This document shows positions 10,465-45,096 of a DNA stretch of 64,000 bases, piece by piece. The stretch is from Lachnospiraceae bacterium. Lineage in GTDB: Bacteria > Bacillota > Clostridia > Lachnospirales > Lachnospiraceae. The stretch spans positions 7,628 through 71,627 of the forward strand of contig JAFVSN010000005.1 in NCBI GenBank assembly GCA_017503735.1, in the 5' to 3' direction. The translations under genes were made by a program, and so were the position numbers. The first letter of the stretch is position 1; each line of letters starts with the position of its first letter. The notes below the pieces were generated by a model. The model saw only the letters and a program-made list of their open reading frames with translations, was not told where the DNA came from and did not search any database.

Positions 10465-10519
10465 TAGTTATATCAAAAAGATTTTTTACATTTATTATCA
10501 CCGGAATTGTGTGTTGAAC

Positions 10520-10695
10520 AATTTTTACCATCTGAAAAGCGTTTTGGTGTAAATGTAATGGTAAAGAAAAATGTGTACTAAAAAATCTTACCATTGGAAA
10601 AGGTCTTTTTACGATTTGGAATGGTAAAAATGCGAGTAAGCATAAATTTTGTACCATTGGGAATGAAGATTTGGTAAGTCCAACGGTAAAACGGA
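10520..10695. repeat. Three tandem 63-bp units, each carrying an internal TACCAT(T)GG / CCAA(T/C)GGTA inverted repeat
   Basis: (T/G)TACCA starts at 10525, 10588 and 10651, an exact 63-bp period. The partner A(T/C)GGTA lies at 10558, 10621 and 10683. Each arm pair is separated by about 27 nt. Confidence 0.8.
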
Positions 10696-10706
10696 TAGGA
10701 ATAATC

Positions 10707-10754
10707 ATGGGGAGGACAATTTCCCAGGCGTGCTGTACATGCTTTAAGCGCTAA
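10707..10754 (+). CDS. Speculative micro-ORF encoding a 15-aa Cys-rich peptide (MGRTISQACCTCFKR)
   Basis: ATG 10707 is preceded by the weak RBS-like TAGGAATAATC. The stop TAA at 10752-10754 lies 6 nt before a strong terminator hairpin. There is no homology evidence. Confidence 0.2.
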   Translation: MGRTISQACCTCFKR

Positions 10755-10760
10755 ACAACG

Positions 10761-10806
10761 AGGGCATCCCTTAGTCTTTTTGACTTTGGGATGCCCTTGT
10801 TTTATT
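10761..10806. terminator. Intrinsic terminator in the convergent gap, usable from either strand
   Basis: A 10-bp GC-rich stem, AGGGCATCCC (10761-10770) / GGGATGCCCT (10788-10797), followed by TGTTTTATT on the + strand. It is also positioned just after the minus-strand PFOR stop. Confidence 0.7.
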
Positions 10807-10836
10807 GCTTAAATTATCTTCACGGAAGAAAGAATC

Positions 10837-13800
10837 TTACATCTCCTCCATTGTTTTATACTTCTGATACCGTACACCGGAATCTTCCTTTGCGGCCTTA
10901 AACAAGCTTTCCGCATGCTCCGGGAAGGTACGCTTTAGGGAAGCATAACGGGTCTCACCCTCAAGGAACTCTTCGTAGTCTAAGGACGGCTCCTTGGAGT
11001 CTACGGTTAACGGCTTTTCTGCGTTCGGATTGTAGCGGTATAAAATCCAGTAGCCTGCGTCAACGGCGCGCTTCATTTCCTGCTGTACATTTGCCATGCC
11101 GGCCTTGATGCCGTGAGCGGCACACGGAGTGTAAGCGATGATAACGGACGGTCCCTTGTGTTCCTCTGCTTCCTTGACTGCCTTGATTAACTGGTTCGGG
11201 TCTGCTCCCATAGCTACCTGAGCCACGTATACATTACCGTAGGTCTGGAAGATAGCACCCAGATCTTTCTTTCTGCTGCGCTTACCTGCGGAAGCGAACT
11301 GCGCTACTGCACCCAGCGGAGTAGCTTTGGAGCTCTGGCCGCCGGTGTTAGAGTAAACTTCGGTATCTACAACAAATACGTTAATGTCTTCTCCGCTGGC
11401 TACCACGTGGTCCAAACCGCCGAAGCCGATGTCGTAAGCCCAACCGTCGCCGCCGAACATCCAGAAGCACTTCTTGGATAACTGGTCCTTACGCTCTAAA
11501 ATCTTAGCCGCGGTAGCGGAATCCATGTTTTCCAGCTCTGCTACCAAAGCATCCGTGGTTTCACGGGATTTATCAAAATCATCAAAGCTGTCTAACCAGT
11601 TCTTTGCGGTTTCACTGCCGGTTTCTGCGGCGTATGCTTCCACTAAGGTCTTTTGCGCCTGACGCTGTTGCTTTACGGATAAGAACATACCCAGAGCAAG
11701 CTCTGCATTGTTCTCAAACAAGCTGTTGGTCCAAGCCGGTCCGAAACCACGCTTGTTGGTAGTGTACGGAATACCCGGCATCGGGGAGCCCCAAGCCTGG
11801 GAACATCCCGTAGCGTTTGCCCAGTATACACGGTCACCGAAGAGCTGGGTTAAAAGCTTTGCATACGGAGTCTCGCCGCAACCTGCACAGGCAGCGGAGA
11901 ACTCCAAGAGCGGCTGACGGAACTGGCTTCCCTTAATGGTGTACGGGGAGAATAAATCACCCTTGTCGGAAACAGAAAGTCCGTAGTTCCATAAGGTATT
12001 CTTTTCTTCGTTTAATTCTACCGGCTTCATAGTGATGGCAGGCTCCTTTGCCGGACAGCAAGCTACACAGCTGCCGCAACCGGTACAGTCGTAAGCGGAA
12101 ATCTGCATGGTAAAATGCAGACCCTTTGCAGCCGGACCGTTTGCCGGGGCAGTAATAAAGCCCTCCGGAGCGTTTGCCTTTTCTTCGTCGTTCAGTAAGT
12201 ACGGACGGATCACAGCGTGCGGACATACAAGAGCACACTTGTTACACTGGATACATTTCTGTGCATCCCAAACCGGTACCTGTAATGCGATACCGCGCTT
12301 TTCATAAGCGGTAAGACCAAGGTCGATGCGGCCGTCTTCGTAGCCCTTAAATGCGCTGACCGGAAGGTCGTCGCCTTTTTGCTTGTTAATCGGCTCCAAA
12401 ATACCGGTAACAACAGCCGGAACGTCAAGGGCAGCGGCTGCTTCGGATACTTCTTCCGCATCCTTCCAGGAAGCCGGAACCTCTACCTTTACAAGCTTCG
12501 TTGCGCCGGCATCAATTGCTGCTACGTTACGAGCTACGACATCGTCTCCCTTTGCAAAGTAGGTCTTCTTGGTAGCGGCCTTAATCATTTCCAGTGCTTC
12601 CTCGGTCGGGATAACTTCCATCAGTGCGAAGAAGGAAGCTTGAAGCACCGTATTGGTATGACTGCCGAGGCCTAATTCCTGAGCAATCTTATTTGCATCA
12701 ATGACATAGAAGTTGATGTTCTTCTCCGCAATCTGGTGGCGCACCTTTGCCGGAATGTGAGAAGTCAGCTCGTCGCCGGTCCAGGAACAGTTAAGAAGGA
12801 AGGTACCGCCTTCTACGATTTCGTCTACAATGTCATACTGGGTAATGTAGCTCTGGTTGTGACATGCTACGAAGTCTGCGCTCTTTACATAGTAGGAGCT
12901 GGTAATCGGCTCATCACTGAAACGTAAGTGGGACTTGGTCACACCGAAGGACTTCTTTGCATCATATTCAAAGTACGCCTGAGCGAACTTGTCGGTATTG
13001 TCGTTAATAATACGAACGGTGTTGTGGTTTGCACCTACGGTACCGTCACCGCCCAGACCCCAGAACTTACAACGAATCACGCCGGCCTTTGCATCAGAGA
13101 ACGGCTTTACCGGTAAGGAAAGATGGGTCACATCATCGTTGATACCGATGGTAAAGTTGGTCTTCGGAGTTGCGGAAGCAAGGTTCTCGAATACAGCTAA
13201 AATCTGTGCAGGGTCGGTATCCTTGGAGCTTAAGCCGTAACGGCCGCCGATGACCTTAATGTTTCTGTCGGAGCTCATCAGTACGCTGCATACATCCTCG
13301 AATAACGGCTCGCCGGCACTGCCCATTGCCTTACAACGGTCAAGCACTGCGATACGCTTCACGCTTTCCGGAAGAGCCTTTAAGAAGTACTCTGCGGAGA
13401 ACGGACGATATAAGTGTACCTGTAAGAAGCCTACCTTCTTGCCTTCTGCGCGAAGGGCATCCACCGCATCGCGGATGACGCCGCTGGCGGAACCCATGGC
13501 GATGATAACATCGGTAGCATCCGGATCGCCGTAGTAGTTAAATACATGGTACTCACGACCGGTAATCTTTGTAATTTCACCGAGATACTTTTCCACGATG
13601 TCCGGAAGGGCATTGTAGAACGTGTTGTGAGCTTCGCGCACCTGGAAGTAAACATCGCCGTTCTGTACGGTGTTACGTAAGGTCGGGTGCTCCGGATTTA
13701 AAGAACCGTCCCGGAATTCTTTTAAAGCGTCCTGATTGATAAGGCTGCCTACCGCATCCATATCCGGAAGCTCGATTTTATTGATTTCGTGGGAGGTACG

Positions 13801-14322
13801 GAAACCGTCAAAGAAGTGCATAAACGGAATCCGGCCTTCGATGGCGGATAAATGTGCCACCGGTGCTAAATCAGCTACTTCCTGGACACTGCCGGAAGAT
13901 AACATGGCAAAACCGGTCTGACGGCAGGCCATCACGTCGGAGTGGTCGCCGAAAATACCCATGGCATGAGTACCAACGGTACGGGATGCTACATGAAGTA
14001 CCGCCGGAAGACGTTCCCCGGCAATTCGGTACAGTACCGGCACCATTAACATGAGTCCCTGAGAGGACGTATATGTAGTAGCCAAAGAACCGGTTTGCAG
14101 TGCACCGTGTACAGCGGTAATCGCACCTGCTTCGGACTGCATTTCGGTTAAGGTTACGGTCTGGCCGAAGACGTTTTTACGTCCCTTTGCAGACCAGGCA
14201 TCGGTCAGTCCTGCCATCGGGGAGGACGGAGTGATCGGATAAATTGCGGCTATCTCGGTAAAGGGATAGGCCATATGTGCGGCAGCTTCGTTGCCGTCCA
14301 TGGTAACAAAATTCTTAGCCAT
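10837..14322 (-). CDS. nifJ: Pyruvate:ferredoxin (flavodoxin) oxidoreductase, single-polypeptide NifJ type
   Basis: About 1161 aa. N-terminus MAKNFVTMDGNEAAAHMAYPFTEIAAIYPITPSSPM. Two 4Fe-4S ferredoxin motifs (CIQCNKCALVCPH, CTGCGSCVACCP). TPP-binding GGDGWAYDIG. RBS AAGAGGT before ATG 14322; the ORF track extension to 14415 overlaps the upstream gene. Confidence 0.92.
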   Translation of the reverse strand: MAKNFVTMDGNEAAAHMAYPFTEIAAIYPITPSSPMAGLTDAWSAKGRKNVFGQTVTLTEMQSEAGAITAVHGALQTGSLATTYTSSQGLMLMVPVLYRIAGERLPAVLHVASRTVGTHAMGIFGDHSDVMACRQTGFAMLSSGSVQEVADLAPVAHLSAIEGRIPFMHFFDGFRTSHEINKIELPDMDAVGSLINQDALKEFRDGSLNPEHPTLRNTVQNGDVYFQVREAHNTFYNALPDIVEKYLGEITKITGREYHVFNYYGDPDATDVIIAMGSASGVIRDAVDALRAEGKKVGFLQVHLYRPFSAEYFLKALPESVKRIAVLDRCKAMGSAGEPLFEDVCSVLMSSDRNIKVIGGRYGLSSKDTDPAQILAVFENLASATPKTNFTIGINDDVTHLSLPVKPFSDAKAGVIRCKFWGLGGDGTVGANHNTVRIINDNTDKFAQAYFEYDAKKSFGVTKSHLRFSDEPITSSYYVKSADFVACHNQSYITQYDIVDEIVEGGTFLLNCSWTGDELTSHIPAKVRHQIAEKNINFYVIDANKIAQELGLGSHTNTVLQASFFALMEVIPTEEALEMIKAATKKTYFAKGDDVVARNVAAIDAGATKLVKVEVPASWKDAEEVSEAAAALDVPAVVTGILEPINKQKGDDLPVSAFKGYEDGRIDLGLTAYEKRGIALQVPVWDAQKCIQCNKCALVCPHAVIRPYLLNDEEKANAPEGFITAPANGPAAKGLHFTMQISAYDCTGCGSCVACCPAKEPAITMKPVELNEEKNTLWNYGLSVSDKGDLFSPYTIKGSQFRQPLLEFSAACAGCGETPYAKLLTQLFGDRVYWANATGCSQAWGSPMPGIPYTTNKRGFGPAWTNSLFENNAELALGMFLSVKQQRQAQKTLVEAYAAETGSETAKNWLDSFDDFDKSRETTDALVAELENMDSATAAKILERKDQLSKKCFWMFGGDGWAYDIGFGGLDHVVASGEDINVFVVDTEVYSNTGGQSSKATPLGAVAQFASAGKRSRKKDLGAIFQTYGNVYVAQVAMGADPNQLIKAVKEAEEHKGPSVIIAYTPCAAHGIKAGMANVQQEMKRAVDAGYWILYRYNPNAEKPLTVDSKEPSLDYEEFLEGETRYASLKRTFPEHAESLFKAAKEDSGVRYQKYKTMEEM

Positions 14323-14389
14323 TTTAAATACCTCTTTTATTTGTTGTAGTCGGATTTGACGAAGAGCCGGTGGCCCGGACATCTTCTTT

Positions 14390-16906
14390 CTAATTGTTAC
14401 TCTTTGCGGTGTCAATGCCTGCGGCGCCGACTAAACCGAGACGCTCCGCAGCTTCTTCACGCATTTTATATTTTAACACTTTTCCCGCTGCATTCATAGG
14501 GAAAGATTTCACAAATTCGATATATTTCGGAACTTTATGACGGGCCATGCTTGCGGCGATGTAGTCATGCATTTCCTCTATGGTCATGGACTTGCCGTCC
14601 TTTAAGATAATGCAAGCCATGGCTTCCTCACCGTACTTTTTATCCGGAACACCGATGACCTGTACATCCTGTACATTCGGATGGGTGTAAATGAATTCCT
14701 CGATTTCTTTCGGATAAATGTTTTCACCGCCACGGATAATCATATCCTTAAGACGGCCGGTGATGCGGTAGTTGCCGTCTTTATCCCGGCAGGCAAGGTC
14801 ACCGGAGTGGAGCCAGCCCTGTGCATCTACGGTACCGCGGGTTGCTTCCGGCATCTTATAGTAGCCCTTCATGGTATTGTAACCGCGGGAACAGAATTCG
14901 CCGTTTTCGCCGTCTGCCACTTCTTCGCCGGTTTCCGGATCGATAATTTTACACTCGATGTGAGGGAAGTTATAACCTACGGTGTCGCAACGTAAGTCTA
15001 ACGGGTCGGTCCATGCGGACATGGTGCTTCCCGGAGAAGACTCGGTCTGTCCGTATACGCTGACGATGCCGATCATATTCATTTCGTTAGGATCTGCCGC
15101 ACGGCGCATTAATTCCGGTGGGCACCCCGCACCTGCCATAATACCGGTACGCATATGGGAGAAGTCCGTCTTTCTGTAATCTTCGTGATTGAACATTGCG
15201 ATAAACATAGTCGGTACGCCGTTAAAGCAGGTGATACGCTCCTGATTGATGCAGGCCAGAGAGGACTTCGCGGAGAAGTACGGCATCGGGCATACGGTTG
15301 CACCGTGGGTCAGGGAAGCGGTCATGGAAAGTACCATACCGAAACAATGGAACATCGGTACCTGAATCATCATACGGTCCGCGGTGGAGAGCCCCATGCG
15401 GTCACCGATACATTTTCCGTTGTTGACTACATTATAATGGGTTAACATAACGCCCTTCGGGAAGCCGGTGGTTCCGGAGGTGTACTGCATATTACATACA
15501 TCTTCCGGCTTTACTCTTGCTGCCATACGGTTCAGTTCTTCCTGCGGAACTAAGTTACCGCGTTCCATGGCTTCGTCAAAGGTAAGACATCCCGGCTGCT
15601 TAAAGCCTACGGTGATAACGTTACGAAGGAACGGAAGACGTTTACAATGCAGCGGTTCCCCCGGTTTGCTTGTGGCAATTTCCGGACAAATCTCATTGAT
15701 GATTTCTCTATAGTTGGAATCCAGACAGGACTCTACCATAACTAAGGTGTGGGTATCGGACTGGCGGAACAAATAGTCTGCCTCGTGTCTTTTATAGGCG
15801 GTATTCACCGTAACCAAAACCGCACCGATTTTGGTGGTAGCCCAAAAGGTGATGAACCATGCCGGAACGTTGGTTGCCCAGATGGATACTTTGCTTCCGG
15901 CCTTTACACCCATGGAAATCAATGCCTTTGCAAATTGGTCTACATCCTCACGGAACTGTTCGTAGGTACGCACATAATCCAATGTGGTATATTTGAACGC
16001 ATACTGATCCGGGAACTCTTCTACCATACGATCCAGTACCTGAGAGAATGTCAGATTGATTAACTCATCCTTCTTCCATACATACTGACCGGTACCGTCA
16101 TGGTTCGGATACAATGCTTTTTTCTTGCCACGGGTCTTTTCAAAGCGGCTCATATAGTTGACAAAGTGGGTAAAAATCACCTCGTAATCCGGCAAATCTT
16201 CCATCCATTCGGTCTTCCACTCTAAGGAAATAAAGCCATCGTAGTCGATGGAAGAGAGGGCGCGCATAATGTCCGCCACCGGCATGGAACCTTCGCCGAT
16301 TAAGTTGTAGGTATCCTTGTCATCGGAGTCACGTAAGTGTACATGTTTTACATAAGCTCCGAGATTTTTAATGGTAGTATCCGCGCTTTCCTCACAGTCC
16401 CGGTACGGATGCTGTACATCCCATAATGCAGCCAGATAGTCGCAGGCAAAATCATCCAACATGGAGCGCAGACGGGCGGTGTCGGAAAAAATACCGCTGG
16501 TCTTCACAAGAACGGTTACTTCTGCAGCCTCTGCCTCCTGTAATAATTCGGTTAAACGGGTGCGGACAAGGTCTTCTTTATCCTGCAGGGCAACTACGGA
16601 TACATACGGTACCTCGGCCTGCTTTGCAATCTGGATTAATTGTTTTACCAAGGCAACCGCGTCGTTTCCCTCTACGGACAAATCGCAGGAGGTATCAAAA
16701 CACGGAATGGAGAGCCTCTTTTCTCTCAACTGACGAACGGTTGCGCCGATGTTATATTTATGGAACGGGCCGCTTTTTTCAGCCAAGGAAGGAACGTAAG
16801 GTAAATTGTAAACTTCCACACCTTCAAAGCGCATATCTACGCCGGCGGCAAGCCATTCTTCCCATGACAGGTGGGACCAACCTCTGGTAGAAAATGAAAG
16901 TTTCAT
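14390..16906 (-). CDS. Fusion protein: N-terminal xylose-isomerase-like TIM-barrel domain plus C-terminal AMP-forming acyl-CoA synthetase/ligase
   Basis: Residues 1 to about 265 form an AP_endonuc_2/sugar-phosphate-isomerase-like barrel (FEGVEVYN, HVHLRD, ISLEW). From about residue 290, all ANL adenylation motifs are present: YTSGTTGFPKG, YGQTE, SGD, GRLKDMIIRGGENIYP and the catalytic-Lys region AAGKVLK. RBS AGGAGG lies within the last codons of the upstream gene, with a 3-nt gap. Confidence 0.85.
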   Translation of the reverse strand: MKLSFSTRGWSHLSWEEWLAAGVDMRFEGVEVYNLPYVPSLAEKSGPFHKYNIGATVRQLREKRLSIPCFDTSCDLSVEGNDAVALVKQLIQIAKQAEVPYVSVVALQDKEDLVRTRLTELLQEAEAAEVTVLVKTSGIFSDTARLRSMLDDFACDYLAALWDVQHPYRDCEESADTTIKNLGAYVKHVHLRDSDDKDTYNLIGEGSMPVADIMRALSSIDYDGFISLEWKTEWMEDLPDYEVIFTHFVNYMSRFEKTRGKKKALYPNHDGTGQYVWKKDELINLTFSQVLDRMVEEFPDQYAFKYTTLDYVRTYEQFREDVDQFAKALISMGVKAGSKVSIWATNVPAWFITFWATTKIGAVLVTVNTAYKRHEADYLFRQSDTHTLVMVESCLDSNYREIINEICPEIATSKPGEPLHCKRLPFLRNVITVGFKQPGCLTFDEAMERGNLVPQEELNRMAARVKPEDVCNMQYTSGTTGFPKGVMLTHYNVVNNGKCIGDRMGLSTADRMMIQVPMFHCFGMVLSMTASLTHGATVCPMPYFSAKSSLACINQERITCFNGVPTMFIAMFNHEDYRKTDFSHMRTGIMAGAGCPPELMRRAADPNEMNMIGIVSVYGQTESSPGSTMSAWTDPLDLRCDTVGYNFPHIECKIIDPETGEEVADGENGEFCSRGYNTMKGYYKMPEATRGTVDAQGWLHSGDLACRDKDGNYRITGRLKDMIIRGGENIYPKEIEEFIYTHPNVQDVQVIGVPDKKYGEEAMACIILKDGKSMTIEEMHDYIAASMARHKVPKYIEFVKSFPMNAAGKVLKYKMREEAAERLGLVGAAGIDTAKSNN

Positions 16907-16909
16907 GGA

Positions 16910-18316
16910 TTAAGCCTCCTCATAAACAATTTTATTGATGGCACTGATATAGGCCTGAATACTGGAGCCGATAATATCAGTGGAAGTTCCGCGGCCGGAA
17001 TAGAGTTTTCCGTGGTCACGGAGCTTGATGATGGTTTCACCCATTGCCTCACGGCCTTCCGTTACGGAACGAATCTGGAAATCGTCCAGCTCGTAATGAC
17101 GGCCCAGAATATTTTCCAAAGCAAGGAATGCCGCATCCACCGGACCGTCGCCCAATGCAACACCCTCTAAGGTCTGGCCGTTCTTCTCAAGCTTCATCTG
17201 AGCCATGGAAGATGCGGTATTGCCGGCGGTAATGTGATAGCTGGTTAATATGTAAGTGGCCGGTACCTGCATAGCTGCGGAAGCGACGATGGTGTCCAGT
17301 TCCTTGGAGGAAATAACGTCTTTGCGTGCCGCTATCTTCCCGAATGCCTCCCATACCTTTGCACTGTCTTCTTCACTTAAGTCATAGCCTAATTTTTCAA
17401 CCGCTTTTAATACGGTAGTCATGGTATCCTGCGCGGTAAGGTTCATTTCCTCTACGTCATCCTGTACTCCGTTGTCAAACGGGGAATTCTTGCTGCGGGT
17501 GGTTTCGCAAATCCATGTAATTTGCTTTACGATGCGGTTCATTTCTACGGTACGAACCGAGCAAGTCACGCCGAAAGAATCTCCTCTGGTTGCAAGCAAA
17601 CGTGCAATGTTTGCAAGGGAAATCTGATTGGTGCAGTAAGCGGATGCCTTGATTTCCCGCACACCGTGCTTAATGGCCGCAATGGCACAGGCATCTGCCA
17701 TGGCCAATTCGTTGGAGCAGGAAAGACCGAGAACCACATTCTGAAGCTCCGGAACATTTTTATTTAAAGCATCAAAAAATTCGGCAAACTCTTCCGGAAG
17801 CATGGCACCGGTAGCGTCACATACCGTAACGGTTTTTGCACCGGCTGCAATGGCGGTTTTGATCGCCTGATATAAAAATGCTGCGTCGCTTCTGGTGGCA
17901 TCGTCTGCAATAAATTCAACATCCGGGGTCTTTTCGCAACATGCGGTTACGATTTCCTCGATGGCTTTTAACATGGCATCCGGTTTCTTGTGGAATAAGT
18001 ATTCCATTTGCACGGGACTGACGGAAGCCAATACCTGCAAACGAGGATTTTTTGCTTCTTTTACCGCATTCCATGTGGTCTCAACGCTTTCCGTATTTAA
18101 AGAAACCGGCACGGCAACAATACTGTTTTTTACTGCTGCTGCAATAGATTTGATGCGGAGCGCATCTACCTTCGGTTGGGAAATACCTTCCAGTTCGATG
18201 ACAGTTACATTTAGTTTATCTAATAGTTTCGGCAACTCGATTTTTTCTTTAAAGGATAGGGAGAATTCTTTCCCAGTCTGTTTTAACGTTGTGTCGCTGA
18301 TTCTGATTTGGTTCAT
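16910..18316 (-). CDS. 2-isopropylmalate synthase (LeuA/DRE-TIM) paralogue with substituted catalytic/metal residues and an intact C-terminal LeuA-type regulatory domain
   Basis: 468 aa from ATG 18316, with RBS AAAGGAGA. It is collinear with LeuA, but DTTLRDGEQ is DTTLKQTGKE, HxHxDxG is SCSNELA, NGIGERAGN is YCTNQISLAN, and ESGIHQDG is SPFDNGVQDD. The C-terminal approximately 130 aa keep the LeuA_dimer-like pattern (GDGPVDAAF...GREAMGE...GRGTSTDIIGSSIQAYISAIN). Confidence 0.8.
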   Translation of the reverse strand: MNQIRISDTTLKQTGKEFSLSFKEKIELPKLLDKLNVTVIELEGISQPKVDALRIKSIAAAVKNSIVAVPVSLNTESVETTWNAVKEAKNPRLQVLASVSPVQMEYLFHKKPDAMLKAIEEIVTACCEKTPDVEFIADDATRSDAAFLYQAIKTAIAAGAKTVTVCDATGAMLPEEFAEFFDALNKNVPELQNVVLGLSCSNELAMADACAIAAIKHGVREIKASAYCTNQISLANIARLLATRGDSFGVTCSVRTVEMNRIVKQITWICETTRSKNSPFDNGVQDDVEEMNLTAQDTMTTVLKAVEKLGYDLSEEDSAKVWEAFGKIAARKDVISSKELDTIVASAAMQVPATYILTSYHITAGNTASSMAQMKLEKNGQTLEGVALGDGPVDAAFLALENILGRHYELDDFQIRSVTEGREAMGETIIKLRDHGKLYSGRGTSTDIIGSSIQAYISAINKIVYEEA

Positions 18317-18473
18317 GATTTTGTCTCCTTTCATTTTACCTGTTTTCGCGCTGGCGATGCTTTGCATCAGCCCCCACCTCGTGACTCCGTCACTCGGTCG
18401 TGGGCGCGTTCGCATGCTCAGCGAGTTCGGAAGCAAGCTTCCGAACTCGCTTCGATGTTCACTTTGCCAGCAC

Positions 18474-18742
18474 GAAAAAAAGTCCCTGAAGTCATATGAC
18501 TCCAAGGACGAATAAACGATTCGCGGTACCACCTTGCTTACAGCCTCCTTACGGAAAACTGTCACTCTCGGACTCTATTAAGCCCATAGCCGATAACGAG
18601 GCTGACCGTACTCCACTACACAAATAGATATCCTTCGCAGAGTCGACTCGGGAGTGAGATTGCTGTCTTCCATCCGTACCGGTTCGCACCAACCACCGGC
18701 TCTCTGAAACCCTCAAAAAAGAAGCATAATTCCGTCACAGTC
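18474..18742 (-). promoter_or_regulatory. T-box riboswitch leader; probable Leu specifier CUC
   Basis: Read on the minus strand: a K-turn-like GACUGUGACGG...CCCGAGUC base, AG bulge AGAGAG, distal-loop GGUGCGAA, an F-box-like CUCGUUA, the T-box core GGUGGUACCGCG (+ strand 18522-18533), then a terminator stem (18482-18509) plus U7. In the specifier-loop region (AAUCUCACU) CUC is the only triplet followed by a purine. The UGGU bulge matches discriminator A73. Confidence 0.85.
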
Positions 18743-18767
18743 ATTCTTATCAATTAAAAACGAGACA

Positions 18768-18796
18768 ATTATAACACGTCAACGTGACAAAGTCAA
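18768..18796 (-). promoter_or_regulatory. Consensus SigA-type promoter for the T-box leader
   Basis: On the minus strand: TTGACT (18796-18791), a 17-nt spacer, then TATAAT (18773-18768). Confidence 0.7.
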
Positions 18797-18934
18797 TTCC
18801 CTTTTTTAAAAAAATAAGAGGATGTAAAAAAGCAGTAAAGAATGAAAAAGAAAGAAAACATTATTAATAAAAAGGTATCTCTTTTTGAATAAATGTGGTA
18901 TAATCAATCTGGGGATAAAGAGGGATAAAAACGA

Positions 18935-20761
18935 ATGGAGCAAAAGAAGAGGAGAAGGAAACGTATCGGAGGTAGCATGAAGATGGCAAAAGAAAAGAAA
19001 CAAAAAAAGTTGCGGGACGGTGAGAACGAACCGAAAAAGGCGCGTGGGAAAAAGAAGCGAGGTAAGATTACCCGGATGCATATGATTCAGTCCAAAATAC
19101 ACACTCTTGTTATTTTGGGCGTTGCGTTGGCGGTAGGGGCAACGGTGTTTCTTATGATATCATATGTAAAAGAACTGGTAATCGATTCCGCTTACGGTAA
19201 GATGTTGAATATGGCAACTTCCTACGGACGTTTGATCGATCAGGAAGAAGCTAAATTAGACAACTCGATTTCCAGAAAGTATATGTCTACGGAACAATTT
19301 GAAACCATTTTGGACGGAATGGAAATAACGGGTCTGAATGAGTTTGAGTGTATCGTTGCACACCGGACCGGTATTATTGCGTATCATCCGGACAAAGAAC
19401 AAATCGGAAAGCCGATCAAAATCGGGTTAATAACCGATGTGGTAGCAAGTATTAACCAGGGAAATGTGTTGGAGAATATGTGTGCCGAATATGAAGTGGA
19501 CGGAAAGAAGATGTATGCAAGCTTCTATGTTACGGTAAATAAGTCCATTATGGTAATTTCAACAAGCAGTTCCGAATTGATGCGTCCGGTAACGGAGATG
19601 TCCGTCATTGCGGTCGGTGTAGCATTGTTGGTACTTGCGGTAATTATCGGAGTGTCCACCTATGCCATCGGACGTTTTACAAAGCCGTTGAAGCAGCTGA
19701 CGGGAATTATTGAGGATACGGCGAAACTAAAAATCAGGCTTCCGGAGAATATGGACGCATTGTGTTCCAGAAGAGATGAGACGGGTATGATCAGCCGTGC
19801 CGTTAGGGAAATGAACAGTAATTTGTATGATGTGGTAACACGGATGGATCAGACCAACAATAGCATAAATGAAAACATGACGAAACTGGAAGAGTCCAGT
19901 AATCAGGTACATATGTTTTGTACGGATAATTCCGCTACAACGGAGCAATTGGCGGCCAGTGCGGAGCAGGTGTCCGAGATGACCAAAGTAATGAACCGTC
20001 ATATGGAAGATATGAGGGCACAGGCAGAAGAAATCGGAAAAGAGACAGAAAAGAGCAACCGCTTTTCCGAAGAAGTGGCAGGACGTGCACAGGAAATGCA
20101 ACATTCCACCCGGAGAGCCATTGACAATACAAGGGAAATGTACGGACGGATTCAGGCGAGAACGAAAGCTGCATTGGAAGGTCTTTCTTCGGTTACGAAA
20201 ATCAATGAGCTGACCCGGTCGATTGTGGAAATTTCCGATCAGACCAGCATGCTTGCTTTAAATGCAAGTATCGAAGCGGCAAGAGCAGGCGAAGCGGGAA
20301 AGGGCTTTACGGTGGTTTCGCAGGAAATCAGTAAGTTGGCACAGCGTTCTTTGGCTTCGGTGAATGATATTAATGCAATTATCGGGGAAGTGAATATAGC
20401 AGTTCATAACATTACCGAGAGCATGGAGAACACCACCCGCTTTTTGGAACAGAGTGTGTTGGAGGACTATGACGGATTTAACCGCACCGGTGCACAGTAT
20501 ATGGCGGATGCGGATACATTCCGAGTGCGGATGGACAATATTTCCGAACAGATTCAGGCGTTAAACGAGGCAATCCGGGACATTTCCGCAGCAGTGGAAA
20601 ACATTTCCGTAACGATGAATGAGACTTCTACCGGCGTTATGGATATTTCGGATAAAACGGCGAACGTGGTGAATGCTACCAGTGATAACTACACGTTGGC
20701 AAACGATACGGCAGAACGTGTACAGGAGTTGCGCAGTATCGTGGATCGGTTTGAGTATTAG
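18935..20761 (+). CDS. Methyl-accepting chemotaxis protein
   Basis: Highly conserved signalling hairpin [35 protein letters not shown]. There are TM helices, a HAMP-like segment and an extracellular sensor domain. The start is uncertain: ATG 18935, or ATG 18983 with a GGAGG RBS, or ATG 19076. Confidence 0.85.
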
Positions 20762-44878: not shown

Positions 44879-44962
44879 GCAGTTGTGGCGGAATTGGCAT
44901 ACGCGCATGATTCAGGTTCATGTCCACGTACGTGGGTAGGGGTTCAAGTCCCCTCAACTGCA
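44879..44962 (+). tRNA. tRNA-Leu, anticodon CAG
   Basis: Manual cloverleaf: acceptor GCAGTTG/CAACTGC, A73, anticodon stem CATGA/TCATG, loop TTCAGGT (anticodon 44913-44915), a long variable arm and T-loop TTCAAGT. No CCA is encoded. Confidence 0.9.
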
Positions 44963-45001
44963 TCGTACCGTATGCAAAACAATGTGAGGTGCGTATTATA
45001 T

Positions 45002-45084
45002 GCGGAAATGCTGGAATTGGCAGACAGGCATGACTAAGGATCATGTGGTCCCCGACCGTGAGGGTTCAAGTCCCTTTTTCCGCA
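45002..45084 (+). tRNA. tRNA-Leu, anticodon AAG (A at wobble position 34)
   Basis: Manual cloverleaf: acceptor GCGGAAA/TTTCCGC, A73, D-stem CTG/CAG, anticodon stem CATGA/TCATG, loop CTAAGGA (anticodon 45036-45038, G37), variable-arm hairpin GGTC/GACC and T-arm GAGGG-TTCAAGT-CCCTT. Confidence 0.85.
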
Positions 45085-45096
45085 TTATAAAATTGT

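What the first reader, a model, noticed from the sequence alone, without database searches (positions are those of the whole stretch)
10837..18796. Leu T-box-controlled module: degenerate LeuA paralogue, TIM-barrel::acyl-CoA ligase fusion and NifJ-type PFOR. Candidate leucine-starvation salvage pathway.
Seen directly on the minus strand:
- A consensus promoter (18796-18768) precedes a T-box leader whose best specifier is CUC (Leu).
- Then comes a LeuA-like gene.
- Three nt later, with an RBS inside the previous gene, comes an 838-aa fusion of a xylose-isomerase-like TIM barrel to a fully motif-competent AMP-forming acyl-CoA ligase.
- 67 nt later, with no hairpin plus U-tract terminator and no recognisable promoter, comes a 1161-aa pyruvate:ferredoxin oxidoreductase.

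Established knowledge: T-boxes switch genes on when the cognate tRNA is uncharged. 2-oxoacid:ferredoxin oxidoreductases are reversible. Rumen and gut anaerobes have been shown biochemically to make leucine by reductive carboxylation of isovalerate via isovaleryl-CoA, and the genes for this route are poorly defined.

Inference: the cluster may encode that route. Acid would be activated to acyl-CoA by the ligase, Fd-dependent carboxylation by the PFOR would give 2-oxoisocaproate, and the inactive LeuA paralogue would serve as a leucine-binding regulatory subunit. A leucine-controlled acyl-CoA ligase/PFOR unit has, to my knowledge, not been described.
Basis: partly seen in the sequence, partly recalled or inferred. 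Interest (0 to 1): 0.8.

Follow-up and report, generated by a model that had tools for sequence, protein, structure and literature searches.

The report
Leucine-starvation operon for isovalerate-to-leucine salvage
A leucine-sensing RNA switch in an uncultured gut Lachnospiraceae bacterium controls a dead copy of a leucine-synthesis enzyme, an unusual fused acid-activating enzyme and a pyruvate:ferredoxin oxidoreductase; comparison with about 80 other genomes suggests these are the long-missing genes that let rumen and gut anaerobes make leucine from isovalerate.

Summary

- **Promoter:** TTGACT-17-TATAAT, with a Rfam-significant T-box downstream.
- **T-box:** it has a CUC (Leu) specifier and its own terminator.
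- **LeuA paralogue (468 aa):** it has lost all metal and substrate ligands but keeps the allosteric domain.
- **Fusion (838 aa):** a xylose-isomerase-like TIM barrel joined to an acyl-CoA ligase, translationally coupled to the LeuA-like gene.
- **PFOR:** a bona fide NifJ-type enzyme, with no promoter or terminator in front of it.

Relatives occur in 351 species genomes of gut and rumen Clostridia.

- **Core:** LeuA-like plus fusion is invariant.
- **Leucine control:** T-box CUC in 41 loci, T-box CUG in 32, and a Leu-codon-rich leader ORF in 6.
- **PFOR:** it follows in Lachnospiraceae-type loci, often only 12-18 nt downstream. Elsewhere a VorB-type 2-oxoacid:ferredoxin oxidoreductase and the aminotransferase IlvE are linked instead.
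- **Parallel arms:** Oscillospiraceae loci also carry two MbcS-like ligases behind Ile and Val T-boxes.

The best reading is a leucine-starvation-induced route: isovalerate, isovaleryl-CoA, 2-oxoisocaproate, leucine. Two points remain inferred: that the dead LeuA acts as a leucine sensor, and that PFOR is the carboxylase. No paper in the library I could search describes this system.

The parts
18768..18796 (-). Sigma-70-type promoter TTGACT-17-TATAAT with a TG extension
   Evidence: 11 of 12 matches. It is the only strong minus-strand promoter-like site in 10500-19100.
18501..18747 (-). T-box leader (tRNA-sensing transcription attenuator)
   Evidence: RF00230, 106.3 bits against a gathering score of 93, E=1.8e-22, full-length match to the model. 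The T-box sequence GGUGGUACCGCG is present.
18656..18658 (-). Specifier codon CUC (Leu), followed by A
   Evidence: alignment (model 'uuc a' aligned to CUC A); the same column reads CTC or CTG in the relatives, and both are Leu codons.
18475..18509 (-). Intrinsic terminator of the T-box (12-bp stem plus T7)
18330..18470 (-). Lineage-specific insertion of about 130 nt between the T-box terminator and the start codon, containing a near-perfect hairpin (18451-18420)
   Evidence: the T-box motif lies 217 nt before the ATG here, against about 85 nt in most relatives; the insertion is shared only with the close relatives L006, L008 and L003, and the arms match 30 of 32.
16910..18316 (-). LeuA-like pseudoenzyme, 468 aa: a degenerate DRE-TIM (HMGL-like) barrel plus an intact LeuA_dimer allosteric domain
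   Evidence: metal and substrate ligands lost. (the replacement residues are invariant in the family). (fold matches full-length MtLeuA; the regulatory domain matches the LiCMS regulatory domain, TMt 0.77-0.81).
16067..16906 (-). N-terminal xylose-isomerase-like TIM-barrel domain of the fusion (aa 1-280), with the first canonical Glu replaced by Lys135
   Evidence: PF01261, 64 bits against 31. (K135, D163, H190 and E229; 'LEN' in MJ1311 aligns to 'lKt'). (distant relatives keep the Glu). (pLDDT about 90).
14390..16066 (-). AMP-forming acyl-CoA ligase domain of the fusion (aa 281-838)
   Evidence: PF00501, 300 bits; PF13193. (best family PRK12583, 676 bits, below its cut-off of 832). (YTSGTTGFPKG, YGQTE, GWLHSGD, ITGRLKDMIIRGGENIYP and PMNAAGK invariant in 56 orthologues).
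14323..14389 (-). 67-nt spacer with an AAAGAGG ribosome-binding site and no promoter-like or terminator-like site
   Evidence: In nine related loci the equivalent spacer is only 12-18 nt.
10837..14322 (-). NifJ-type pyruvate:ferredoxin oxidoreductase, 1161 aa
   Evidence: TIGR02176, 1713 bits against 911. (1424 bits to the Moorella PFOR 6CIN). (the YPITPSS motif with Thr31, Arg114 and Ile123 are kept).
10751..10797 (-). Hairpin AGGGCATCCC...GGGATGCCCT followed by CGTTGTTT: the likely end of the transcription unit
   Evidence: read directly from the sequence. The loop is long (17 nt), so the simple scan did not list it.

Best explanation
The locus is a three-gene operon switched on when tRNA-Leu is uncharged. 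Its job is to make leucine from exogenous isovalerate.

**Proposed steps**
1. The ligase half of the 838-aa fusion converts isovalerate, ATP and CoA to isovaleryl-CoA.
2. A 2-oxoacid:ferredoxin oxidoreductase reductively carboxylates isovaleryl-CoA with CO2 and reduced ferredoxin to 2-oxoisocaproate. Here that enzyme is the co-transcribed PFOR. In Oscillospiraceae it is a linked VorB-type VOR.
3. The branched-chain aminotransferase IlvE makes leucine. IlvE lies elsewhere in this genome but inside or beside the module in several relatives.

**Role of the two degenerate barrels**
The catalytically dead LeuA paralogue is translationally coupled to the fusion and is always found with it. It most likely acts as a leucine-sensing subunit. 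Through its intact LeuA-type allosteric domain it would dock on the equally degenerate TIM domain (Glu changed to Lys) and throttle the ligase when leucine is present. That would add feedback inhibition on top of the T-box, much as the dead tRNA-synthetase paralogue HisZ does for HisG.

**What is shown and what is inferred**
- Shown: the anatomy, the leucine-specific control, the loss of catalytic residues and the gene linkage.
- Inferred: the substrate, the direction of the oxidoreductase reaction, PFOR acting on a branched acyl-CoA, and the sensor role.
For: **Regulation**
- A T-box with specifier CUC and its own terminator sits behind the only promoter.
- Of the 80 related loci plus the window, 74 carry the T-box motif upstream. 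The specifier column reads CTC in 41 and CTG in 32, both Leu codons.
- Six of the seven loci without a T-box have a promoter, a short ORF with 5-9 Leu codons (for example MDKYASKNFIVVSLLLGGLLLGHSYN) and a terminator hairpin instead.

**Linkage**
- LeuA-like is directly followed by the fusion in every locus with enough sequence.
- PFOR follows in 24 of 45 loci with at least 3.6 kb downstream. The spacer is 12-18 nt in nine of them.
- Of the 21 loci without PFOR, 14 carry a VOR within the locus. No locus has both.
- L076 has VOR alpha/beta/gamma, IlvE, LeuA-like and the fusion on one strand. VorB scores 549 bits against a cut-off of 399, and IlvE 482 against 307.
- L070 has leader ORF, LeuA-like, fusion, IlvE-type aminotransferase, PFOR. 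L052 has a BCAT-like gene (tblastn match only) directly after the fusion.

**Parallel arms**
- In Faecousia and other Oscillospiraceae loci, two further ligases whose best family is MbcS sit behind T-boxes with specifiers AUC (Ile) and GUC/GUA (Val). VOR and IlvE follow them.
- Purified MbcS activates 2-methylbutyrate and isobutyrate but only poorly isovalerate (PMC10026030). That explains why the Leu arm needs a different ligase.

**Proteins**
- The ligase motifs are intact and 82-98% conserved across families.
- LeuA-like has lost the Asp and both His metal ligands and the Arg. It keeps LeuA_dimer at 108 bits and the GDGPVDA motif, and the replacement residues are invariant.
- TIM residue K135 is invariant in this clade. 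Distant fusions that have neither a LeuA-like partner nor a T-box keep the Glu.
Against: - No biochemical data exist for any of these proteins.
- The ligase's substrate is inferred from context only. Its best NCBIfam family is a generic 'fatty acid CoA ligase', and the score is below that family's cut-off.
- The module PFORs keep the pyruvate-type residues Thr31, Arg114 and Ile123 and show no consistent pocket change. Activity on a branched C5 acyl-CoA is therefore unproven.
- The PFOR-versus-VOR split largely follows phylogeny, so it represents few independent events.
- Three well-covered loci (L036, L037, L077) show neither oxidoreductase nearby.
- No IlvE lies in the 64-kb window.
- Nothing tests a physical contact between LeuA-like and the fusion, or leucine binding by LeuA-like.
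- The invariance of the replacement residues in both barrels could equally mean a new catalytic site rather than a docking surface.
Confidence: 0.62

Rival explanations
1. The pathway is the same, but PFOR is not the carboxylase. It oxidises pyruvate as usual and supplies the reduced ferredoxin and CO2 (and acetyl-CoA) that a VOR encoded elsewhere uses. Alternatively, it is simply a second pyruvate enzyme that became attached to the operon in Lachnospiraceae.
For: - The module PFORs keep Thr31, Arg114 and Ile123 and a canonical or near-canonical ALSIFGDH segment.
- PFOR is absent from about half of the loci.
- The core pair works without it in Oscillospiraceae.
Against: - Spacers of 12-18 nt and the lack of any promoter place PFOR under the Leu leader in many genomes. 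That is odd for a central catabolic enzyme.
- L030 carries a second PFOR paralogue, 54% identical, 2 kb away. The module copy therefore looks like a dedicated extra.
- PFOR and VOR never co-occur in a locus.
- In L070 a BCAT (Pfam Aminotran_4) sits between the fusion and PFOR.
Confidence: 0.2
2. The ligase supplies isovaleryl-CoA as a primer for iso-branched membrane fatty acids when leucine, its normal source, is scarce. This is the role MbcS plays in Staphylococcus aureus. On this reading the ligase does not serve leucine synthesis.
For: - MbcS activates short branched acids for FabH priming (PMC10026030).
- The neighbouring ligases in Oscillospiraceae are MbcS-like.
- Leucine limitation would also limit primer supply.
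Against: - The module is repeatedly linked to an oxoacid:ferredoxin oxidoreductase and to IlvE. Primer supply needs neither.
- T-boxes as a class control aminoacylation, amino-acid synthesis or uptake (established knowledge).
- No fab genes are linked in any locus examined.
Confidence: 0.08
3. The two degenerate barrels are not regulators. Together they form a new metal-independent catalytic unit acting on a leucine-related compound, and the ligase activates that product rather than free isovalerate.
For: - The residues that replaced the catalytic ones are themselves invariant. In LeuA-like these are K12, Q13, T14, G15, K16, C166, C200, N202 and E203. In the TIM domain it is K135, with D163, H190 and E229 retained.
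- The fusion and the translational coupling would also suit substrate channelling.
Against: - No chemistry is needed between isovalerate and isovaleryl-CoA.
- The Ile and Val arms lack such barrels and carry HTH-cupin domains instead.
- LeuA-like keeps the complete allosteric domain.
- All three metal ligands of the DRE-TIM site are gone.
Confidence: 0.08
4. The module is catabolic: leucine to 2-oxoisocaproate to isovaleryl-CoA to isovalerate.
For: Oxoacid:ferredoxin oxidoreductases and aminotransferases are reversible and are used for branched-chain amino-acid fermentation in other Clostridia (established knowledge).
Against: - Induction by uncharged tRNA-Leu, or by ribosome stalling at Leu codons, is the opposite of what a leucine-degrading operon needs.
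- AMP-forming ligases work in the activating direction and conserve no ATP.
Confidence: 0.02

Closest known systems
T-box leaders (Rfam RF00230) controlling amino-acid supply genes in Firmicutes
   Same: It is a full-length match above the gathering score. It has a specifier loop, the T-box sequence and a terminator/antiterminator, and it sits upstream of genes that should raise the supply of the cognate amino acid.
   Different: The regulated genes are not a tRNA synthetase, a de novo pathway or a transporter. They are an acyl-CoA ligase, a pseudoenzyme and an oxidoreductase. In some relatives the T-box is replaced by a Leu-rich leader ORF.
2-Isopropylmalate synthase LeuA (DRE-TIM metallolyase with a LeuA_dimer regulatory domain)
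   Same: The domain order and fold are the same: a barrel, a linker and a beta-beta-beta-alpha regulatory domain. The regulatory-domain motifs (GDGPVDA and others) are retained.
   Different: The Asp and two His metal ligands, the substrate Arg, the TSxxH His and the GERAGNA loop are all lost. It scores far below every LeuA equivalog cut-off, so it cannot be an isopropylmalate synthase.
HisZ-HisG (a dead histidyl-tRNA-synthetase paralogue serving as the allosteric subunit of ATP phosphoribosyltransferase)
   Same: It works like this on the proposed reading. A catalytically dead paralogue of an enzyme of the same amino-acid system would give end-product control to the first enzyme of a pathway.
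   Different: The protein families are unrelated. Complex formation and leucine binding are untested here. This is an analogy only, drawn from my own knowledge.
MbcS, methylbutyryl-CoA synthetase of Staphylococcus aureus (PMC10026030)
   Same: It is an AMP-forming ligase that activates exogenous short branched acids. It is the best family for the two neighbouring Ile- and Val-controlled ligases in Oscillospiraceae.
   Different: The window's ligase belongs to another subfamily (PRK12583-like) and carries an N-terminal TIM barrel. MbcS handles isovalerate poorly and feeds lipid synthesis, not amino-acid synthesis.
Reductive carboxylation of branched-chain volatile fatty acids to branched-chain amino acids in rumen bacteria (Allison, Bryant and co-workers, 1960s-70s; my own knowledge), and VOR/PFOR acting as 2-oxoacid synthases
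   Same: The proposed chemistry is the same: acid, acyl-CoA, ferredoxin-dependent carboxylation to the 2-oxoacid, then the amino acid. The habitat is also the same, since nearly all carriers are ruminant or herbivore gut MAGs.
   Different: That work was physiological and enzymological, with no gene assignment that I could find. Here a NifJ-type PFOR, not a VOR, is the linked oxidoreductase.
Leader-peptide attenuation of the enterobacterial leu operon
   Same: In six related loci a short ORF with runs of Leu codons precedes a terminator hairpin upstream of the same genes.
   Different: This is seen in Lachnospiraceae, with no Rfam match. The ORF starts about 9-10 nt after the -10 box, so it is nearly leaderless. 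It is not present in the window itself.

Membership tests
T-box leader (RF00230) | Covariance-model score at or above the gathering score over the full model | tested here: met
   106.3 bits against 93, model positions 1-219 of 219.
T-box leader (RF00230) | A specifier codon in the Stem I internal loop that matches one amino acid and is conserved as such in orthologous leaders | tested here: met
   CUC here. The column reads CTC in 41 leaders and CTG in 32, both Leu.
T-box leader (RF00230) | The T-box sequence, with a competing terminator/antiterminator | tested here: met
   GGUGGUACCGCG, then a 12-bp hairpin plus U7.
T-box leader (RF00230) | Read-through induced by uncharged cognate tRNA | not testable with these tools
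   This needs in vitro transcription or RNA-seq under leucine limitation.
2-isopropylmalate synthase LeuA | Score above the cut-off of an NCBIfam LeuA equivalog | tested here: not met
   best score 303 bits against a cut-off of 532 (NF002086); TIGR00973 gives 269 against 599.
2-isopropylmalate synthase LeuA | Divalent-metal ligands (the Asp of RDGEQ and the two His of HxH) and the substrate Arg | tested here: not met
   KQTGK and SCSNE replace them; the replacements are invariant in the family.
2-isopropylmalate synthase LeuA | C-terminal LeuA_dimer allosteric domain | tested here: met
   PF08502, 107.8 bits against 24.9; structural match to the LiCMS regulatory domain, TMt 0.77-0.81.
Xylose-isomerase-like TIM barrel (PF01261) | Pfam gathering score | tested here: met
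   64.4 bits against 31.1; the barrel is predicted with pLDDT of about 90.
Xylose-isomerase-like TIM barrel (PF01261) | The canonical Glu-Asp-His-Glu metal/catalytic set | tested here: not met
   the first Glu is Lys135, invariant in this clade. D163, H190 and E229 are kept, and distant relatives keep the Glu.
ANL-superfamily AMP-forming acyl-CoA ligase | AMP-binding and AMP-binding_C domains with the core adenylation motifs, including the C-terminal catalytic Lys | tested here: met
ANL-superfamily AMP-forming acyl-CoA ligase | Membership of a subfamily of defined substrate (PRK12583, MbcS or others) | tested here: not met
   PRK12583 gives 676 bits against a cut-off of 832, and no equivalog is reached.
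ANL-superfamily AMP-forming acyl-CoA ligase | Substrate: isovalerate | not testable with these tools
   The substrate is inferred from context only.
Pyruvate:ferredoxin oxidoreductase, NifJ type (TIGR02176) | Equivalog cut-off and full domain set | tested here: met
   1713 bits against 911. POR_N, PFOR_II, POR, EKR, 2x[4Fe-4S] and TPP_enzyme_C are all present.
Pyruvate:ferredoxin oxidoreductase, NifJ type (TIGR02176) | Substrate-binding Thr31, Arg114 and Ile123 (D. africanus numbering, recalled from the literature) | tested here: met
   This argues for a pyruvate-like pocket rather than a remodelled one.
Branched-acid to branched-amino-acid reductive-carboxylation route | Ligase, oxoacid:ferredoxin oxidoreductase and branched-chain aminotransferase encoded together under control of the cognate amino acid | tested here: met
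   The window holds the ligase and PFOR under a Leu T-box. IlvE is added in L052, L070 and L076. VOR and IlvE lie with Ile and Val T-box ligases in at least 14 loci.
Branched-acid to branched-amino-acid reductive-carboxylation route | Demonstrated flux from isovalerate and CO2 into leucine | not testable with these tools
   This needs isotope labelling in a carrier organism.
Pseudoenzyme allosteric subunit (HisZ-like logic) | A stable complex with the catalytic partner, and effector binding that changes its activity | not testable with these tools
   The only indirect support is strict co-occurrence, translational coupling and the intact regulatory domain.

The most novel reading that the evidence does not exclude
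A catalytically dead LeuA paralogue has been recruited as a dedicated leucine sensor. It would dock on an equally inactivated TIM barrel fused to an isovalerate-CoA ligase. This would give allosteric feedback on top of tRNA-sensing transcriptional control, in a ferredoxin-driven CO2-fixing route to leucine. The route would be one arm of a three-armed, T-box-addressed system (Leu, Ile, Val) that converts each branched volatile fatty acid into its amino acid. In Lachnospiraceae a NifJ-type PFOR would have taken over the branched-chain 2-oxoacid synthase step.
Probability: 0.3. Interest if true: 0.88.

Novelty: new variant of a known kind. Interest (0 to 1): 0.78.

Why it matters
**An old question becomes testable.** It has been known since the 1960s that rumen and gut anaerobes need branched volatile fatty acids and build leucine, valine and isoleucine from them. 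These 'isoacids' are fed to dairy cattle for that reason. I found no paper in the searchable library that assigns genes to the route.

**What this locus offers.** This locus and its relatives give a concrete gene set, each part addressed by its own amino-acid-specific RNA switch. The set is present in at least 351 species-level genomes of gut Clostridia, where the proteins are annotated only as 'hypothetical protein' and 'AMP-binding protein'.

**If the reading is right:**
- Isoacid-dependent amino-acid synthesis could be predicted from genomes.
- It would add a ferredoxin-driven CO2-fixing step to gut carbon budgets.
- It would supply a new example of a pseudoenzyme reused as a metabolic sensor.
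- It would show a NifJ-type PFOR working on a branched substrate.

Tried and rejected
**PFOR pocket remodelling.** The window's PFOR has AMGIFGDH where Moorella and Desulfovibrio have ALSIFGDH. The Ser-to-Gly change is confined to this genome, most relatives have AMSIFGDH, and L070 is canonical. I dropped this as evidence.

**Structure prediction.**
- The only alignments allowed were shallow. Both models have a mean pLDDT of 58.
- The LeuA-like model still found LeuA and the LiCMS regulatory domain.
- The fusion model returned only generic ANL ligases and said nothing new about the TIM domain.

**Sequence search of the TIM domain against solved structures.** Only weak hits to uncharacterised or sugar-epimerase barrels came back; the best was MJ1311 at 1.7e-09. 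No function could be transferred.

**Distant TIM::ligase fusions and stand-alone barrels.** Their contexts (L083, L084, L085) have no T-box and no LeuA-like gene, and they gave no functional clue.

**The second T-box of L076 (73 bits).** Its specifier could not be read with confidence; it is either GCA or CUG.

**Literature.** Eight searches found no paper linking a T-box to an acyl-CoA ligase or oxidoreductase unit, or assigning genes to isovalerate carboxylation. The library is not complete.

**Could not be determined.**
- Whether carrier genomes lack leuABCD, or hold another PFOR or VOR.

**Window context.** The rest of the window holds unrelated genes: sigma factors, a chemoreceptor, glycosidases, cdaA and a clpX-like gene.

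Full report
**1.

On the minus strand a near-consensus promoter lies at 18796-18768: TTGACT, 17 nt, TG-extended TATAAT. It is the only strong minus-strand promoter-like site between 10500 and 19100. Directly downstream, Rfam finds a full-length T-box leader at 18747-18501, scoring 106.3 bits against a gathering score of 93. In the alignment to the model the specifier triplet is CUC (18658-18656), followed by A. The T-box sequence GGUGGUACCGCG is followed by a 12-bp hairpin and seven U residues at 18509-18482.

The first gene really starts at the ATG at 18316, giving 468 aa. The longer GTG ORF overlaps the leader and is not the gene. Its stop codon is separated from the next ATG by three bases (TAA-TCC-ATG). 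A GAGGAGG ribosome-binding site lies inside its last codons.

The second gene encodes 838 aa. After a 67-nt spacer with an AAAGAGG ribosome-binding site, and with no promoter-like or terminator-like site in between, the third gene encodes 1161 aa. A hairpin follows its stop codon.

The three proteins are deposited as MBR2407529.1 'hypothetical protein', MBR2407528.1 'AMP-binding protein' and MBR2407527.1 PFOR, all from a Lachnospiraceae MAG.

**2. The three proteins**

*Protein 1, the LeuA-like protein.* It has the HMGL-like barrel and the LeuA_dimer domain. It reaches only 303 bits on the best LeuA model, whose cut-off is 532. Residue-by-residue alignment to the Listeria and Neisseria LeuA structures shows these changes:
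- RDGEQ to KQTGK
- TSxxH to VSPVQ
- PDTVG to CDATG
- HCHND to SCSNE
- the GERAGNA loop deleted

The Asp and both His metal ligands and the substrate Arg are therefore gone. The replacement residues are invariant across the family, so this is a conserved pseudoenzyme and not a decaying gene. A low-confidence model (pLDDT 58) still retrieves full-length M. tuberculosis LeuA, including the leucine-bound entry. Its C-terminal domain superposes on the isoleucine-bound regulatory domain of Leptospira citramalate synthase (TM 0.77-0.81, rmsd 2.5 Å).

*Protein 2, the fusion.* It joins a xylose-isomerase-like TIM barrel (residues 27-234) to a complete AMP-forming ligase. Every adenylation motif is intact and invariant in 56 orthologues. 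The nearest NCBIfam family is PRK12583, at 676 bits against a cut-off of 832. The family's first catalytic and metal-binding Glu is an invariant Lys (K135), while D163, H190 and E229 remain.

*Protein 3, the PFOR.* It is a bona fide NifJ-type PFOR: 1713 bits against a cut-off of 911, and 1424 bits to the Moorella enzyme.

**3. Distribution and the conserved core**

I scanned one genome per species with an alignment of the LeuA-like protein. Relatives turned up in 351 species genomes, and the best 80 loci were kept. They come from Lachnospiraceae, Roseburia, Faecalimonas, Coprococcus, Oscillibacter, Dysosmobacter, Faecousia, Acutalibacteraceae and Christensenellaceae. Almost all are MAGs from ruminant or other animal guts.

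In every locus with enough sequence, the LeuA-like gene is immediately followed by the TIM::ligase fusion. Identity to the window across these loci:

| Part | Identity |
|---|---|
| Ligase domain | 82-98% in all but one locus (71% in L076) |
| LeuA-like | 58-93% |
| TIM domain | 56-92% |

The ligase domain is thus far more constrained than its partners.

**4. Leucine control is universal, and is achieved in three ways**

- The T-box motif lies upstream in 73 of the 80 loci, as well as in the window.
- The specifier column reads CTC in 41 leaders, mostly of the Lachnospiraceae type, and CTG in 32, of the Oscillospiraceae type. Three were cut off or interrupted. Switching between synonymous Leu codons is strong evidence for leucine specificity.
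- The seven loci without the motif have no Rfam T-box.
- Six of those seven, from rumen Lachnospiraceae, instead carry a promoter and a short ORF with 5-9 Leu codons. Examples are MDKYASKNFIVVSLLLGGLLLGHSYN and MNGILISNLVLVSLLLGGLLLGHSYNSCR. A GC-rich hairpin with a U-tract follows. This looks like a ribosome-mediated leucine attenuator that has replaced the T-box.
- The seventh, L076, places the pair at the end of a longer operon.

**5. What the pair is linked to**

Of the 45 loci with at least 3.6 kb downstream of the fusion:
- 24 have the PFOR next. L034 and L035 are the same sequence, so this is 23 of 44 distinct loci. The spacer is only 12-18 nt in nine of them.
- 21 have no PFOR. Of these, 14 carry a multi-subunit oxidoreductase within the locus. 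Among the 15 that also have at least 7.5 kb upstream, 12 do.
- No locus has both enzymes.

In L076 the alpha subunit of that oxidoreductase is a VorB, at 549 bits against a cut-off of 399. The gene after the gamma subunit is IlvE, at 482 bits against 307. The order there is VOR alpha/beta/gamma, IlvE, LeuA-like, fusion, all on one strand. L070 reads leader ORF, LeuA-like, fusion, IlvE-type aminotransferase, PFOR. L052 has a BCAT-like gene (tblastn match only) directly after the fusion.

In Faecousia and other Oscillospiraceae loci the Leu-controlled pair is transcribed divergently from a second operon, in this order:
1. a T-box
2. an HTH-cupin::ligase
3. a T-box
4. a second HTH-cupin::ligase
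5. a P-loop protein
6. VOR alpha/beta/gamma
7. IlvE

The same genes lie downstream on the same strand in L072 and L081.

The first of these T-boxes has specifier AUC (Ile), at 113 bits in L061. The second has GUC or GUA (Val), at 84 bits in L082. The best family for both ligases is MbcS, at 428 and 413 bits, below the cut-off.

Purified MbcS activates 2-methylbutyrate and isobutyrate. Isovalerate is a poor substrate (PMC10026030).

The picture is three acid-activating enzymes, each addressed by the T-box of the amino acid that its acid would yield. They sit around a VOR and a branched-chain aminotransferase.

**6. Most likely mechanism**

Uncharged tRNA-Leu stabilises the antiterminator and the operon is transcribed. 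That step follows from established T-box knowledge. The next three steps are inferred from context.
1. The ligase domain makes isovaleryl-CoA from isovalerate.
2. An oxoacid:ferredoxin oxidoreductase carboxylates it reductively to 2-oxoisocaproate.
3. IlvE transaminates that to leucine.

Induction by starvation and the use of an AMP-forming ligase fix the direction as anabolic.

For the oxidoreductase step in this window the candidate is the co-transcribed PFOR. Three things support this: its complementary distribution with VOR, the very short spacers, and a second PFOR paralogue (54% identical) 2 kb away in L030. Two things count against it. Its Thr31, Arg114 and Ile123 are unchanged. And the PFOR/VOR split largely follows phylogeny.

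**7. The two degenerate barrels**

Distant TIM::ligase fusions (30-37% identical in the TIM domain) and stand-alone barrels keep the catalytic Glu. The two fusions whose context I could read have their own promoter, no T-box and no LeuA-like gene upstream. So the Glu-to-Lys change and the acquisition of the LeuA-like partner go together in the Leu clade.

Four observations bear on the role of the LeuA-like protein:
- it strictly co-occurs with the fusion
- it is translationally coupled to it
- its allosteric domain is intact
- its GDGPVDA motif is the LeuA-type form, not the citramalate-synthase form GDGGYDA

My best guess is that LeuA-like is a leucine-sensing subunit acting on the ligase through the TIM domain. 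This is analogous to HisZ and HisG. It is inference only. A new metal-independent catalytic site is not excluded, because the replacement residues are themselves invariant.

**8. Rivals**

- PFOR as a supplier of reduced ferredoxin and CO2, or as a bystander (0.2).
- Primer supply for branched-chain lipids, as with MbcS (0.08). The repeated linkage to VOR or PFOR and IlvE argues against this.
- A novel catalytic pair acting on another leucine-related compound (0.08).
- Catabolism (0.02), which the regulation contradicts.

**9. Novelty**

Eight full-text searches found no paper connecting a T-box to an acyl-CoA ligase or oxidoreductase unit, or assigning genes to isovalerate carboxylation. The comparative T-box and riboswitch paper I opened does not mention such genes.

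The chemistry is long known from rumen physiology (my own knowledge), and all the protein families are known. What is new is the gene system, its triple T-box addressing, the pseudoenzyme partner, the doubly degenerate barrels, and a NifJ-type PFOR in the role of a branched-chain oxoacid synthase. I rate it a new variant of a known kind, with high interest. It makes a 60-year-old question directly testable, and it bears on isoacid nutrition of ruminants.

**10. Limits**

- There are no biochemical or expression data.
- Nearly all carriers are uncultured.
- Only 10-kb flanks were available, so I could not check whether carriers lack leuABCD or hold other oxidoreductases.
- The structure models were of low confidence outside the TIM domain.
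- One T-box specifier, in L076, could not be read.

Noticed in passing
L055, L065, L068, L070, L073, L078: about 170-320 nt upstream of the LeuA-like start: In these rumen Lachnospiraceae loci the T-box is replaced. A promoter is followed by a short ORF with 5-9 Leu codons (conserved core SLLLGGLLLG) and then a GGCTTCGTTTCC...GGAACGGAGCC hairpin with a T-run. The ORF's ATG lies only about 9-10 nt after the -10 box, so it would be nearly leaderless. This is a candidate leucine leader-peptide attenuator with no Rfam match.
   Followed up: partly
L061 4369-9562 (minus strand); likewise L041, L042, L044, L046, L047, L049, L056, L058, L060, L062, L066, L067, L075, L080, L082; same strand in L072, L076, L081: An operon with two roughly 770-800-aa fusions of an XRE-type HTH, a cupin and an MbcS-like acyl-CoA ligase. 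Each fusion has its own T-box, with specifiers AUC (Ile) and GUC/GUA (Val). A Mrp/ParA-like P-loop protein, VOR alpha/beta/gamma and IlvE follow. An HTH fused to an adenylating enzyme recalls BirA-type enzyme/repressors. I did not look into the function of the HTH-cupin part.
   Followed up: partly
window 18330-18470 (-): An insertion of about 130 nt sits between the T-box terminator and the start codon. It contains a near-perfect inverted repeat, GCGAGTTCGGAAGC/GCTTCCGAACTCGC (18451-18420). It is shared only with the closest relatives (L006, L008, partly L003) and is not repeated elsewhere in the window. Similar GC-rich repeat units lie in the leaders of L068 and L070. Its effect on expression is unknown.
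   Followed up: partly
window 44879-44962 and 45001-45085 (+): Two adjacent tRNA-Leu genes, with anticodons CAG and AAG. An A34 anticodon outside tRNA-Arg is unusual in bacteria. If deaminated to inosine, it would read CUC, the specifier of this T-box. No tRNA-Leu(GAG) lies in the window.
   Followed up: no
L083 270-2792, L084 161-2638, L085 105-917: Distant TIM::ligase fusions (825-840 aa) and stand-alone barrels of about 270 aa exist that keep the catalytic Glu. They have their own promoters, no T-box and no LeuA-like gene. In L084 the fusion is followed by a protein with the 2-oxoacid dehydrogenase acyltransferase domain and by a homoserine O-acyltransferase. The ancestral function of the fusion is unknown.
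   Followed up: partly
L030 13220-15325 (-): A second NifJ-type PFOR paralogue, 54% identical to the module PFOR, lies 2 kb downstream of the module on the opposite strand and is cut by the contig end.
   Followed up: no
L034 and L035 (contig JAGAQI010000047.1, both ends): The two loci are identical 21.4-kb sequences in inverted orientation at the two ends of one 265-kb contig. This is probably an assembly artefact (terminal inverted duplication). I counted them once.
   Followed up: yes
L001/L002/L012 and L015, inside the T-box leader: These Roseburia-type leaders carry an insertion of about 100 nt between Stem I and the rest of the T-box. As a result, the specifier lies far upstream of its usual position.
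   Followed up: no
L076 5277-5525 (+): A weak T-box (73 bits) lies in front of the P-loop, VOR, IlvE, LeuA-like, fusion operon. Its specifier register is ambiguous: GCA by the model alignment, with CUG one shift away.
   Followed up: partly
L070 331-509 (+): A Clostridiales-1 sRNA (RF01699, 80.9 bits) lies about 9.5 kb upstream of the module.
   Followed up: no
all loci, ligase domain of the fusion: The ligase domain stays 82-85% identical between Lachnospiraceae and Oscillospiraceae. In the same loci LeuA-like, the TIM domain and PFOR fall to 60-77%. That is unusually strong constraint for an acyl-CoA ligase.
   Followed up: no
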